A stretch of DNA of 13,285 nucleotides from a virus (taxonomy: Duplodnaviria; Heunggongvirae; Uroviricota; Caudoviricetes). Below, in pieces: positions 9,001 through 12,000 of the stretch (position 1 is the first letter of the stretch; each line of letters begins with the position of its first letter). Where the stretch lies: IMG/VR virus record IMGVR_UViG_2609459822_000007, one strand, 5' to 3'. Made by a program: the position numbers.

Positions 9001-12000
9001 TTTCGCCATTTTTGAACCTGTCATATTGCCCCCAGCATGGTGGTGACCATCGCCATCAATGGACCAGCCAGATCCGGGTCCACTCGAAACATCGACACAA
9101 TGCCTTCACTCATCTCCTTCAGTTTCTGGTGGCGTGGTGCGTTGAGAATGACCGCCTGCTTTGCCTCACTGAGTTCCTTTTCCATTTCAGCCAGCCGAGC
9201 CATGAAGCTATCCTGCTCAACCAGGTGGCCGCGATATTCCAGCGGTAGTACCGCCAGAATTGCCGGGGTCAGTTCACGCACGTTATTTCGGTATTTTTCA
9301 GAATCGAATTTGTTATCGAGGAAGCGGAACAGCTTCTGGCGTGCACGACTGACATCATCAGGAAAATCGATGGTGCCGCCGCCCTGTGCTCGATACTCAT
9401 TCACAATGAGTGCGGCAACTACATCCTGATTATCTTCAGCAGACCAAGCGCGGACGGCATCACGGATTTTTTCGTGGCCTGGCACCTGTTTTGTTTGAGA
9501 ACGATTTATCACCGCAGTCGGGCTAAATCCGCTAGTCTGTTGGTATGTAAGTGGTTGCATAATTGACTCCTTTAGTTTGAATTGACTGTTAAGTTGATTG
9601 CTTATTGTTAAAGAGCGTGAAATGGAAATTTAAGCTGCGTTCTTTTCGGTGTGTGGAAACAACTTCGGAAGATCCGGGCGAATCTGGTATGCCTTCACTA
9701 CTCCACCAGTAGCCGTAACAATGCTGCCGACATGTTCAGGGGATACCTTTGCTTTGTTGTGAAGCCACTTATAGACGGCCTGCTGTGAAACTTCGCAAGC
9801 AGCGCCCAGTTTCTTTTGTGAACCAACGATATTGATCGCTGTTTTGATAGCTGGGTTCATAACAACCTCCGTGGTTAATTTGAATCAAGATTAAAACCAT
9901 GGTTGTTTTTAGTCAACAACCATTTTCGTTTGATGGAATAAAACCTTGGTTGTACATTTGGACTATGAAAACAACACTCTCAGAAAGACTTAAAGAAGCC
10001 AGATTAGCGCGAGGCCTTACACAAAAGGCGCTTGGGGATTTGGTCGGGGTTAGCCAAGCTGCTATTCAGAAAATCGAAACAGGGAAAGCTAATCAAACAA
10101 CTAAAATCGTGGAGATCGCGAACGCTTTGGGTGTGCGCGCAGAATGGTTATCTTCTGGCGTTGGAAATATGTCAGACAGTACAGTGCAACCAATACAATC
10201 AACTGTCAGCCATTCCAAATACTTCAAGATTGACGTTCTTGATATAGAAGTCAGTGCTGGGCCGGGAGTCATCAACCGTGAGTTTGTAGAAGTTCTACGC
10301 TCGGTTGAGTACTCGTTTGACGATGCTCGTCATATGTTCGATGGTAGGAAGGCGGAAAATATCCGCATCATTAACGTGCGTGGTGACAGCATGTCAGGAA
10401 CGATCGAACCAGGTGATCTGCTGTTCGTTGATATCACAGTTAAATCTTTCGACGGTGATGGTATCTATGCGTTTCTGTACGACGACACAGCCCATGTAAA
10501 GCGCCTGCAAATGATGAAGGATAAGCTGCTGGTCATCTCTGATAACAAAAGCTACTCACCGTGGGACCCGATCGAGAAAGACGAGATGAACCGGGTGTTC
10601 ATCTTCGGTAAGGTTATTGGGAGCATGCCGCAGACATATAGAAAGCATGGGTAGTACCAATTAAAAATTATCAACTGGGCATTGTGCTCATTCAGTAAAG
10701 AACTAATTCCTATCTTTGCTCTAGGTAGTAATATTAAGCCACCGCAATAATATCTTTACCTAACGGCGTAAGAATCCCGGTCACCGTGCCGGGTTTTCTT
10801 TTGCCCTCCCCTCATCACACACACCGTTAAAAAAACCACCATAACCTCGCTTCAGTTATCGCTATGCGATTCAAGTCACAAAATAAATCCATCCTAAATA
10901 CAACCAGTTATATCTAAAACAACCAATAAAACAACTTTTGTTGTTGACGGTAAAACAACTATAGTTTTAAATAAGTTCATCGCAACAACACAACGATACG
11001 GCAACCACCTGATTCACCGTTGCGATGACCGCTTAGATCCGCAGTTTGAATTTCAGCAGGCTTCGGGGAGTGCGAGGGGTGAAACGGACGCGTGAACGTC
11101 GGTGTGACCAGCTGAAATCAACTCAACATTTCATACCTTAGTCGCTTCAACGAGGCGACTTAGTTATGACAACCGGCGGCCATCCACCGCCTGAATACGC
11201 GCAGAAGTCTCTATATGTTCAGCAGCCCAGCTTACGGGCAGGAGTTTTTATGGTTCATCAACATTACGGAACGCAGACCGTTAATCGAGGTGCGGTCATG
11301 CCAGGAATGCTGGTCAAACACAAAGATGGTACCTGGACTGCATCAGCTAATTTACGCGGACGGCTTTATCTGCATCGCGGCATCGAGCGCACTTATACCC
11401 GTGATTTGCTCGTGGAAGTTTTTCTCGACGGACGCGGTAACGGCCTGAATCGCTAATCCCCTTTCCTGTTTTCCTAATCAGCCTGGCATTTCGCGGGCGA
11501 TATTTTCACAGCCATTTTCAGGAGTTCAGCCATGAACGCTTATTACATTCAGGATCGTCTTGAGGCTCAGAGCTGGGCGCGTCACTACCAGCAGATCGCC
11601 CGTGAAGAGAAAGAGGCAGAACTGGCAGACGACATGGAAAAAGGCCTGCCCCAGCACCTGTTTGAATCGCTATGCATCGATCATTTGCAACGCCACGGGG
11701 CCAGCAAAAAAGCCATTACCCGTGCGTTTGATGACGATGTTGGGTTTCAGGAGCGCATGGCAGAACACATCCGGTACATGGTTGAAACCATTGCTCACCA
11801 CCAGGTTGATATTGATTCAGAGGTATAAAACGGATGAGTACAGCACTCGCAACGCTGGCAGGGAAGCTGGCTGAACGTGTCGGCATGGATTCTGTCGACC
11901 CACAGGAACTGATCACCACTCTTCGCCAGACGGCATTTAAAGGTGATGCCAGCGATGCGCAGTTCATCGCATTGCTGATCGTCGCCAACCAGTACGGCCT

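What the first reader, a model, noticed from the sequence alone, without database searches (positions are those of the whole stretch)
10655..11165. About 510 bp between cI and the first PL-operon ORF has no N-like gene
Neither strand has an ORF longer than about 28 codons here. The region holds a terminator-like hairpin (10776-10803) and an OL/PL-like cluster of operator motifs (10915-10995), leaving only about 170 nt of leader before the first ORF. A lambda-type phage would encode N (and often rexAB or sieB) in this interval. Either early antitermination is protein-independent (a cis-acting RNA, as in HK022 put sites), is supplied from elsewhere, or the prophage has lost N and is regulatorily defective.
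Basis: partly seen in the sequence, partly recalled or inferred. Interest (0 to 1): 0.55.

Follow-up and report, generated by a model that had tools for sequence, protein, structure and literature searches.

The report
N-less, put-less lambdoid early-left leader
The gap after the repressor gene really has no N antiterminator gene; it holds a terminator, the left operator/promoter and a ~270-base untranslated leader in front of a mis-called kil gene, an arrangement shared by viable phages and about 41% of complete E. coli genomes, so it is a working N-independent design and not a broken prophage.

Summary
Between cI (ends 10654) and the first real PL gene there is no N-like gene.

The interval is in fact longer than reported. 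The "first ORF" 11166-11456 is an over-extended kil. The real kil is 11250-11456 (68 aa), so the leader is about 270 nt.

- **Not a defective prophage:** the same region, 99% identical, sits in plaque-forming phages (PhiR34_1, Turner) whose genomes carry no annotated N. It is also in 2231 of 5426 complete E. coli genomes.
- **Not an HK022 put site:** a covariance model built from 12 put RNAs finds nothing in the window. The same model scores HK639 putL, which was left out of training, at 76 bits.
- **Arginine-rich mini-ORF (11079-11141, MKRTRERR...):** it exists, but it has a stop/Gln polymorphism, frameshifts in relatives, no codon-position signal and no protein family.
- **3' half of the leader (11131-11249):** this is a widespread module, also found just after N and tL1A in phi80 and in HK639. 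It contains a covariation-supported hairpin that buries an SD and AUG.
- **Right operon:** it carries a perfect rrn-type boxA (9605-9616, minus strand).

Best reading: natural N-independent early transcription, because no strong terminator lies before exo or Q and boxA protects the right side. A new cis-acting antiterminator RNA in 11013-11130 is not excluded, and nothing here demonstrates it.

The parts
9899..10654 (+). cI-type repressor (HTH + S24 peptidase). The true start may be the ATG at 9965, because 9899-9934 overlaps the operator palindromes.
   Evidence: Pfam HTH_3 and Peptidase_S24; annotated cI in PhiR34_1 and Turner.
9630..9860 (-). cro-like repressor (YdaS family), first gene of the right operon.
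   Evidence: Pfam YdaS_toxin and P22_Cro.
9605..9616 (-). Perfect rrn-type boxA (GCTCTTTAACAA) between cro and the YdaT/cII-like gene.
   Evidence: The only 0-mismatch match in the window. Chance expectation, my own arithmetic: 2 x 13285 / 4^12, about 0.002. Present on the PR side in 55 of 150 related loci and never on the PL side.
10776..10803 (+). Intrinsic terminator ending the cI transcript.
   Evidence: 6-pair stem with 5 G-C pairs, followed by a T tract.
10916..10972 (+). OL operators (AAAACAAC half-sites) overlapping PL. Inferred -35 is TTGACG 10944-10949 and inferred -10 is TTAAAT 10967-10972.
   Evidence: Motif enrichment 6 against 0.82 expected; repeats shared with the OR region. The promoter hexamers are read from the sequence. 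The automatic scan did not call this promoter.
10980..11249 (+). Untranslated PL leader, about 270 nt. Sequence conservation with phage 4C10, which has a different immunity region, begins here.
   Evidence: Alignment A1. Polymorphism is 15/237 against 13/69 at kil third codon positions, p=0.003. No feature annotated there in the RefSeq genome rows listed.
11013..11130 (+). Lineage-specific part of the leader, with no homologue outside this E. coli phage group. It occupies the position where related phages carry putL, or nutL plus N.
   Evidence: Boundary at about 11013 in an alternative-promoter group. L093 has put directly upstream of the shared module. No copy in GTDB species representatives. 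Fold z-score +0.66. Constraint is only marginal, p=0.06.
11079..11141 (+). Arginine-rich mini-ORF MKRTRERRCDQLKSTQHFIP*. Start is GTG here and ATG in 7 haplotypes; SD GGGGAG at 11065-11070. Judged probably not a gene.
   Evidence: TAG/CAG polymorphism at 11139 (17 against 66 haplotypes). A 5-nt insertion at 11117 in 4 haplotypes. One 31-aa cluster in 5.8 billion proteins. Codon-position bias p=0.2.
11131..11169 (+). Hairpin 1 of the shared 'tL1-region' module. A long irregular stem pairs the SD-like GAG(G) and the AUG at 11166.
   Evidence: MFE. 98.4% of cells paired, 7 of 15 pairs with compensatory changes, 0 of 500 shuffles reaching this.
11166..11192 (+). Start of the mini-ORF MTTGGHPPP. 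The first 9 codons are identical at the DNA level in all relatives; the tails vary from 16 to 139 aa.
11175..11191 (+). Hairpin 2: GGCGG-CCATCCA-CCGCC. Annotated 'terminator' in HK639.
   Evidence: Invariant, so covariation cannot be assessed.
11225..11249 (+). Hairpin 3 (GCCC/GGGC), followed by the kil Shine-Dalgarno AGGAG (11240-11244).
   Evidence: The stem differs in HK639 and phi80 while keeping its pairing, judged by eye on alignment A4.
11250..11456 (+). kil (KilR-like FtsZ inhibitor, 68 aa), the real first gene of the left operon.
   Evidence: phrog_294 at 1.6e-38 and NF008465 at 8.8e-17, starting at residue 29 of the 96-aa ORF. 13 of 15 polymorphisms at third codon positions. The 68-aa form is annotated in 4C10, HK225 and HK639.

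Best explanation
This is the early-left control region of a natural, viable lambdoid lineage that has neither an N protein nor an HK022-type put RNA. Related phages include 4A7/4C10 (classified Bievrevirus), the PhiR series and Turner.

**Layout of the interval**
- The cI terminator.
- OL/PL.
- A leader of about 270 nt that runs straight into kil-gam-bet-exo.

**Shown**
- The phage lineage lacks N and put.
- The first gene is a 68-aa kil.
- The 3' half of the leader is a conserved structured module shared with phi80, HK639, HK225 and Enterobacter phages.
- The right operon carries a consensus boxA.

**Inferred**
- The left operon needs no dedicated antiterminator to reach the recombination genes. 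No convincing intrinsic terminator lies between PL and the end of exo, and this lineage never carries terminator-ended gene cassettes between PL and kil. put- and N-bearing relatives do carry such cassettes.
- The shared module acts as a translational and/or Rho-dependent attenuator. It limits expression of the toxic kil gene through a hairpin that hides the SD and AUG of a tiny ORF.
- The right operon is protected from Rho by host Nus factors assembling on boxA, as in rRNA operons. It has no strong intrinsic terminator before Q.
For: **No N, and no put**
- No gene-sized ORF in the interval.
- The PhiR34_1 genome (99.2% identical here; host recorded as MG1655) has Q but no annotated N. None of its unnamed small proteins hits an N family.
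- put model R1 finds nothing in the leader. Its best hit anywhere in the window has E=0.64. It finds nothing in PhiR34_1 or 4C10, yet scores HK639 putL at 76.5 bits and L093 at 98.9 bits.
- Rfam is negative.

**The arrangement is common and stable**
- The leader is present in 2231 of 5426 complete E. coli genomes. It is contiguous in 2206 of them.

**kil boundaries**
-.

**The shared module**
- Hits in phi80, just after N and tL1A and inside the region GenBank labels the t-L1 signal, and in HK639, where it is annotated 'terminator'.
- Hairpin 1 covariation.
- Fold z-score -2.2.

**Cassettes**
- 66 of 66 loci with this leader have it directly abutting the module.
- 12 of 14 put loci have 460-1330 nt between put and the module; the contexts inspected are cassettes that end in intrinsic terminators.

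**Terminator scans**
- Only weak hairpins, at chance frequency, before exo and before Q.
- The first strong ones lie after exo in PhiR34_1 and after Q in the window.

**boxA**
-.

**Background from literature and my own knowledge**
- kilR of Rac is known to be silenced by Rho/NusG: Cardinale 2008 (from memory); Barshishat 2018, PMC5793797, seen only as a listing.
Against: - Rho-dependent terminators cannot be predicted with these tools, so 'no antiterminator needed' is not proven.
- In PhiR34_1, two good intrinsic-terminator candidates lie between exo and int on the PL strand. PL-driven xis/int expression would need read-through or a separate promoter.
- The lineage-specific leader segment sits exactly where relatives keep putL or nutL. 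Overall it is less polymorphic than synonymous sites (p=0.003 for the whole leader; p=0.06 for this part alone). That is compatible with a cis-acting function not identified here.
- No transcript data were available.
- The PL hexamers are read by eye. The scan tool did not call the promoter.
Confidence: 0.55

Rival explanations
1. The lineage-specific leader segment (about 11013-11130) is a new class of cis-acting processive antiterminator RNA. It would be functionally analogous to HK022 put but unrelated in sequence, modifying RNA polymerase as it leaves PL.
For: - **Positional equivalence:** in L093 a genuine put lies directly upstream of the same shared module and the same kil-gam-recT-exo operon.
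- **Same slot in other phages:** in phi80 the slot holds nutL plus N, and in HK639 it holds putL.
- **Conserved boundary:** conservation starts at or near the transcription start in two different promoter contexts.
- **Reduced polymorphism:** the whole leader is less polymorphic than the neighbouring synonymous sites.
- **A use for it:** terminator-like hairpins exist downstream of exo.
Against: - The fold is no more stable than shuffled sequence (z=+0.66).
- There are no divergent homologues, so no covariation can be assessed.
- Constraint on this part alone is marginal (p=0.06).
- The apparent invariant blocks are not longer than chance (P=0.76 and 0.22).
- There is no second copy downstream of PR.
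- This lineage never tolerates terminator-ended cassettes between the segment and kil, unlike put phages.
Confidence: 0.15
2. A very small N-like protein is encoded at 11079-11141. It carries an arginine-rich motif, MKRTRERRCDQLK. In most relatives the reading frame continues as an ARM-Kil fusion of about 125 aa. The protein would act on an RNA site in the leader.
For: - Resemblance to the lambda N arginine-rich motif TRRRERRAEKQ (recalled from memory).
- SD-like GGGGAG lies 8 nt upstream of the start.
- The start codon is GTG or ATG in different haplotypes.
- Within the ORF, 4 common changes are synonymous and 2 are non-synonymous.
- Some pipelines annotate the long form as 'Kil'.
Against: - The C-terminus is not conserved. 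TAG is present in 17 of 83 haplotypes, this window included.
- A 5-nt insertion frameshifts 4 haplotypes, and further indels lie downstream.
- Codon-position distribution of leader polymorphisms is 5/3/7, p=0.2.
- Only one 31-aa cluster turns up in a 5.8-billion-protein search.
- There are no Pfam, PHROG or NCBIfam N hits.
- RefSeq annotates nothing there in the genome rows listed, a spread sample of the 2231.
- No boxB-like hairpin is present on either operon.
- 20 aa is too short for the NusA- and RNAP-binding parts of N (established knowledge).
Confidence: 0.07
3. The prophage lost N by deletion. It is either regulatorily defective or depends on N from a co-resident lambdoid prophage.
For: - Element C normally follows an N gene or a gene cassette plus its terminator in other phages, so an ancestral deletion is conceivable.
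- A boxA without a boxB remains on the right side.
Against: - The identical architecture is found in isolated, plaque-forming phages with E. coli K-12 and C recorded as hosts.
- It is found in 41% of complete E. coli genomes at 95-100% identity.
- No nut-like boxA or boxB remains in the leader.
Confidence: 0.04

Closest known systems
HK022 putL/putR and the HK639 putL-like antiterminator RNA
   Same: A lambdoid phage without N, with a non-coding leader directly downstream of PL. In L093 and HK639 the put element precedes the same shared module and a kil-gam-recT operon.
   Different: No sequence or structure match to a put covariance model that does recover the held-out HK639 putL. No second copy in the right operon. 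No exceptional fold stability.
Lambda N / nut (boxA plus boxB) antitermination
   Same: A boxA sits between cro and the cII-position gene, where nutR lies in lambda. An arginine-rich mini-ORF lies downstream of PL.
   Different: No N family member. No boxB hairpin next to boxA. No boxA in the left leader within 3 mismatches. The mini-ORF is not conserved as a protein.
rrn-type boxA / Nus-factor antitermination (rRNA operons; boxA upstream of CRISPR arrays, PMC7665894)
   Same: 12 of 12 match to the consensus GCTCTTTAACAA in the early part of the right operon. This is stronger than lambda's own boxA (from memory).
   Different: Present on one operon only. Its function here is untested.
The phi80 tL1 region (after N and tL1A; GenBank M11919 't-L1 regulatory signal') and the HK639 'terminator' feature
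   Same: 81-82% identity over about 60 nt (E from 2e-7 to 3e-5). The same hairpin 1 / ATGACAACCGGCGGCCATCCACCGCC core. The same position upstream of kil.
   Different: In this window it is not preceded by N or by an intrinsic terminator. Its termination activity is unknown here, and hairpin 2 has no T tract.
The Rac prophage kilR 5' UTR and its sRNA KilS
   Same: A long non-coding leader upstream of a KilR-family gene in a YdaS/YdaT-type immunity region.
   Different: No sequence similarity. KilS ends at its own intrinsic terminator; this leader has none.

Membership tests
HK022-type put antiterminator RNA | Sequence and secondary structure matching the put consensus: stem I with an AACGGC loop, and stem II. 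| tested here: not met
   Model R1 with filters off gives no hit in 10980-11250 or downstream of PR. The best hit in the window has E=0.64 and lies elsewhere. Controls: HK639 76.5 bits, L093 98.9 bits.
HK022-type put antiterminator RNA | Located in the transcribed leader downstream of PL, and usually also downstream of PR. | tested here: inconclusive
   The position downstream of PL is equivalent. No repeat of the leader is found on the PR side.
HK022-type put antiterminator RNA | Activity depends on the RNA polymerase beta-prime zinc-binding domain. | not testable with these tools
   Needs genetics or biochemistry.
Lambda-type N protein | A conserved ORF of about 100 aa next to PL, with an N-terminal arginine-rich motif. 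| tested here: not met
   Only a 20-31 aa ARM-like ORF with a variable end. No family hits.
Lambda-type nut site | boxA followed by a boxB hairpin in both early operons. | tested here: not met
   boxA is on the PR side only. No hairpin lies downstream of it, read from the sequence.
rrn-type boxA element | Consensus boxA in the 5' part of a long transcription unit. | tested here: met
   GCTCTTTAACAA at 9605-9616 (minus strand), with 0 mismatches.
rrn-type boxA element | NusB/NusE-dependent resistance to Rho. | not testable with these tools
   Needs nus or rho mutants, or bicyclomycin.
phi80-type tL1-region module | Homologous hairpin 1 plus the ATGACAACCGGCGGCCATCCACCGCC core, upstream of early-left genes. 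| tested here: met
phi80-type tL1-region module | Transcription termination activity. | not tested
   Rests only on GenBank annotations of phi80 and HK639.
Kil / KilR FtsZ inhibitor | Match to the family profile over its full length. | tested here: met
   phrog_294 at 1.6e-38. NF008465 scores 60.9 bits, below its 92-bit cutoff, so this is a family relative and not an equivalog.

The most novel reading that the evidence does not exclude
The roughly 120-nt lineage-specific leader segment (11013-11130) is a third, previously unrecognised solution to lambdoid early antitermination. It would be a cis-acting RNA unrelated to put or nut that makes RNA polymerase termination-resistant. The segment is present in prophages of about 41% of complete E. 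coli genomes.
Probability: 0.12. Interest if true: 0.8.

Novelty: new variant of a known kind. Interest (0 to 1): 0.42.

Why it matters
Lambda's N/nut system and HK022's put RNA are the textbook ways in which lambdoid phages get past early terminators. This window shows a very common E. coli prophage and phage lineage, present in 2231 of 5426 complete genomes, that has neither.

It also defines the non-coding parts that stand in their place:
- a lineage-specific leader segment;
- a widely shared structured module in front of the toxic kil gene;
- a consensus boxA on the right operon.

This gives a concrete and easily testable system for asking three questions. Can lambdoid phages run their early programme on host Nus factors alone? 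Is a new antiterminator RNA present? How is kil kept in check?

It also corrects recurrent mis-annotation. Kil is called at 96, 128 or 77 aa in the wrong frame in several deposited phage genomes.

Tried and rejected
1. **Rfam.** Searched at gathering threshold on the whole window and at E<=10 on 10700-11300. Only chance-level hits appeared (ROSE E=7.4, ctRNA E=0.89).
2. **put homology.** Rejected with model R1.
3. **Invariant blocks.** I first thought the leader contained four discrete invariant blocks under selection. A permutation test showed the runs are no longer than chance (P=0.76 for the longest, 0.22 for the top four), so I dropped that claim. I kept only the overall three-fold deficit of polymorphism.
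4. **ARM mini-ORF as an N remnant or protein.** The protein search returned a single 31-aa cluster. tblastn against phages found only this lineage, plus matches to the module region.
5. **An MRGAKRK ORF in phi80-type leaders.** It looked similar at the peptide level but is unrelated at the DNA level.
6. **AgvB / Pas prophage sRNAs.** These lie in the late region, not at PL.
7. **Other leaders.** No similarity to the KilS region of Rac, the HK639 M3-like RNA or the phi80 nutL leader.
8. **Divergent homologues for covariation.** Searching GTDB species representatives gave none. The 29-mer had 0 hits, and the 13 hits to the 19-mer were all chance matches in unrelated phyla.
9. **The shared 13-nt AATCAACTYAACA.** It lies downstream of both promoters, but about 1.6 such matches are expected by chance (my estimate), so it was not pursued.
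10. **King et al. 2011 (PMC3187212).** The paper could not be read.
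Full report
**What the window is.** The window is the early region of a lambdoid phage or prophage. On the plus strand lie a cI-type repressor (9899-10654; HTH plus S24 peptidase) and then the left operon. On the minus strand lie a YdaS-type cro (9630-9860), a YdaT/cII-like gene (9021-9560), O, P, ren, a DLP12-like nin region and Q. These match the annotated genome of phage PhiR34_1. The finding concerns 10655-11165.

**The observation.** With ATG/GTG/TTG starts, the largest ORFs in the interval are 36 aa (minus strand) and 31 aa (plus strand).
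- The hairpin at 10776-10793 followed by TTTTCTTTTG is a good intrinsic terminator for cI.
- The motif AAAACAAC occurs 6 times in the window against 0.82 expected. Three copies are at 10916-10959 and two in the cI/cro divergent region.
- OL-like and OR-like segments match each other as inverted repeats.
- I read PL as TTGACG (10944-10949), a 17-nt spacer, then TTAAAT (10967-10972). This is by eye; the scan tool did not call it.
- Conservation with phage 4C10, which has different operators, begins at about 10980. That fits a transcription start there.

**The 'first ORF' is mis-delimited.** The ORF 11166-11456 hits the Kil family only from its residue 20-29 onward (phrog_294 at 1.6e-38; NF008465). 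An AGGAG lies 5 nt upstream of the ATG at 11250.
- Among 83 distinct haplotypes from IMG/VR and GenBank relatives, 13 of 15 common polymorphisms in 11250-11456 fall at third codon positions.
- Between 11166 and 11249, relatives carry 1- and 2-nt indels.
- One locus switches to unrelated sequence upstream of about 11193.
- Deposited genomes annotate this gene in four different ways: 128, 96, 93 and 68 aa, or a 77-aa ORF in the wrong frame.
- RefSeq annotates nothing over 11013-11249 in any of the genome rows listed, a spread sample of the 2231.

The real first gene is kil at 11250-11456, and the leader is about 270 nt.

**Is the element defective?** No.
- The 511-bp interval is 99.2% identical in phage PhiR34_1 (host recorded as MG1655) and 99.0% identical in phage Turner. 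It is 84-95% identical in 14 further phage records, including 4A7 and 4C10.
- The complete PhiR34_1 annotation has Q but no N. Its unnamed small proteins hit no N family.
- The leader 11013-11249 is found in 2231 of 5426 complete E. coli genomes, almost always once, and is uninterrupted in 2206.

**Is it a put site?** I collected 12 put sequences: HK022 putL and putR, plus IMG/VR relatives. I aligned them and obtained a consensus structure in which 8 of 15 pairs covary. From this I built model R1.
- With filters off, R1 gives nothing in the leader or downstream of PR. The best hit in the window has E=0.64 and lies inside a gene.
- R1 scores the HK639 'putL-like antiterminator RNA', which was not in the training set, at 76.5 bits (E=8e-16). 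It finds nothing in PhiR34_1, 4C10, HK225, ENT1 or phi80.
- Rfam finds nothing either.

Membership in the put family was tested and is not met.

**Is there a hidden N?** In the frame of 11166 there is an arginine-rich ORF with a stop at 11139-11141: TTG 11046, GTG 11070 or GTG 11079, reading ...MKRTRERRCDQLKSTQHFIP*.

Points that resemble lambda N:
- the arginine-rich motif itself (recalled from memory);
- an SD-like GGGGAG 8 nt upstream of 11079;
- position 11079 is G in 76 haplotypes and A in 7, so the codon is always a possible start.

Points against a real protein:
- the stop is polymorphic, TAG in 17 haplotypes and CAG in 66;
- four haplotypes carry a 5-nt TCAAC insertion at 11117 that changes the frame;
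- the reading frame downstream is broken by other indels;
- leader polymorphisms show no codon-position bias (5/3/7, p=0.2);
- a search of 5.8 billion protein clusters returned a single 31-aa entry;
- Pfam, PHROGs and NCBIfam give no N hit.

I rate a functional mini-protein as unlikely, at about 7%.

**The 3' half of the leader is a shared structured module.** The core TTAGTTATGACAAYCGGCGGCCATCCACCGCC occurs in more than 120 IMG/VR contigs. Related copies are in HK225, Enterobacter phages, a Klebsiella phage, phi80 and HK639.
- In most other contexts it lies immediately after an intrinsic terminator that closes a variable upstream gene.
- In phi80 it follows N and tL1A, and lies inside what GenBank M11919 calls the t-L1 regulatory signal.
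- In HK639 its second hairpin is annotated as a terminator.
- Across 25 distinct variants, hairpin 1 (window 11131-11169) is 98.4% paired. Compensatory changes occur at 7 of 15 pairs. No shuffle out of 500 reaches this, and slid controls are far lower.
- Hairpin 1 pairs an invariant GAG (SD-like) and the AUG of a mini-ORF. The first nine codons of that ORF (MTTGGHPPP) are identical at the DNA level everywhere, while the remainder varies from 16 to 139 aa.
- That pattern indicates a nucleotide-level element, not a conserved peptide.
- The module folds better than shuffled sequence (z=-2.2).
- It is about four times less polymorphic than kil third codon positions (5/119 against 13/69, p=0.0016).

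Its function is inferred, not shown. I read it as an attenuator and translational gate in front of kil. This is consistent with the known Rho/NusG silencing of kilR in Rac (literature, from memory, plus PMC5793797 seen only as a listing).

**The 5' half is lineage-specific.** Sequence 11013-11130 has no relative outside this E. coli phage group. This holds in the phage database, in GTDB species representatives, and against Rac, phi80 nutL or HK639 M3-like sequences.

It occupies the slot where relatives with the same downstream module carry other elements:
- putL directly abutting the module in L093, in a phage with the same YdaT-type cII and the same kil-gam-recT-exo operon;
- putL plus cassettes in HK639;
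- nutL plus N in phi80.

This is suggestive positional evidence for an analogous role. The direct evidence, however, is weak:
- the fold is no better than shuffles (z=+0.66);
- the polymorphism deficit for this part alone is marginal (10/118, p=0.06);
- the invariant 'blocks' I first saw are not significant;
- no covariation can be measured.

One comparative pattern argues against processive antitermination. All 66 IMG/VR loci with this segment, and 2206 of 2231 genomes, have it contiguous with the module. By contrast, 12 of 14 put loci have 460-1330 nt inserted between put and the module. In the contexts I inspected, that inserted DNA is a gene cassette ending in an intrinsic terminator.

**The right operon.** A perfect GCTCTTTAACAA lies at 9605-9616 (minus strand), between cro and the cII-position gene. 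It is the only exact match in the window. My chance estimate is about 0.002.
- No boxB-like hairpin follows it.
- 55 of 150 related loci, with several different immunity regions, have the same boxA on the PR side. None has one on the PL side.
- No strong terminator-like hairpin lies between PR and Q. The strong one at 804-781 (minus strand) follows Q.
- On the left, the first convincing hairpins in PhiR34_1 come after exo.

**Conclusion.** Of its three interpretations:
- 'protein-independent' is the closest, but the specific HK022-put analogy fails;
- 'defective' is refuted;
- 'supplied from elsewhere' is unlikely.

The most likely picture, at about 55%, is a lineage that needs no dedicated antiterminator. 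The left operon reaches its recombination genes without crossing an intrinsic terminator and is gated by the shared structured module. The right operon relies on a consensus boxA and host Nus factors. A new cis-acting antiterminator RNA in 11013-11130 remains possible, at about 12-15%, and would be the interesting outcome.

Noticed in passing
window 10983-10994 (+): CAACAACACAAC lies about 4-16 nt after the inferred PL start. It is perfectly complementary to nt 72-83 of GcvB, the R1 seed region. It is the only such 12-mer in the window. Chance expectation is about 0.3 per window (my estimate), so it may be coincidence. A prophage anti-GcvB RNA (AgvB) is known, but from the late region.
   Followed up: partly
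window 11215-11448 (+); L207 4508-4741; L001 1606-1887: A 77-aa ORF overlaps kil in another frame. It is annotated as a CDS in PhiR34_1, and Turner's CDS runs into it after a 1-nt deletion. It has no family hit, and the polymorphism pattern supports the kil frame. These look like mis-annotations in deposited genomes.
   Followed up: yes
window 11113-11127 (+): TCAAC is tandemly repeated (AATCAACTCAACA), and 4 haplotypes carry an extra TCAAC copy. The stretch 11100-11160 is C-rich and G-poor (GC skew about -0.3), like a Rho-loading site. A near-identical 13-mer (AATCAACTTAACA) sits 5 nt after boxA on the PR side (9587-9599, minus strand).
   Followed up: partly
L086, L100, L104, L137, L146, L151 and others, upstream of element C: Many unrelated early-left cassette genes are preceded by the same conserved stretch, which reads ...KAFLPHQRVTTEG(K)AM in one frame. 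Each of these cassettes ends in an intrinsic terminator. They look like exchangeable cassettes with conserved junction sequences.
   Followed up: no
L326 1775-1850; L325 1262-1320; L093 6085-6150; L126, L119, L121: phi80, HK639, L093 and many IMG/VR phages share the same first 60 nt or so of PL leader (CCATCGAAACGAAACAT.GACAGCTGAGCGAAGTTAG.CAGCGGCG). After that, some continue with a boxA-like TGCTTTTTAACAA (phi80 type) and others with put. The two antitermination systems therefore appear to be swapped on a common leader.
   Followed up: partly
L328 2611-2670 (HK639): HK639 carries an annotated 'M3-like RNA' after its cII-like gene in the right operon. It has no counterpart in the window, where the cII-like gene and O overlap at 9021-9024.
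   Followed up: partly
window 9899-9965 (+): The 251-aa cI ORF begins inside the operator palindromes (9891-9934). The HTH domain starts after an internal Met (MKTTLSERL, ATG at 9965), which may be the real start.
   Followed up: no
window 781-1295 (-): A Q-like antiterminator ORF (903-1295) is followed by the strongest terminator-like hairpin in the window (804-781). This is presumably the PR'/tR' late control region.
   Followed up: no
L329 6406-6503 (E. coli K-12 Rac): Rac has an annotated Hfq-associated sRNA, KilS, derived from the kilR 5' UTR. It is unrelated in sequence to this leader. It shows that kil leaders can yield regulatory RNAs.
   Followed up: partly
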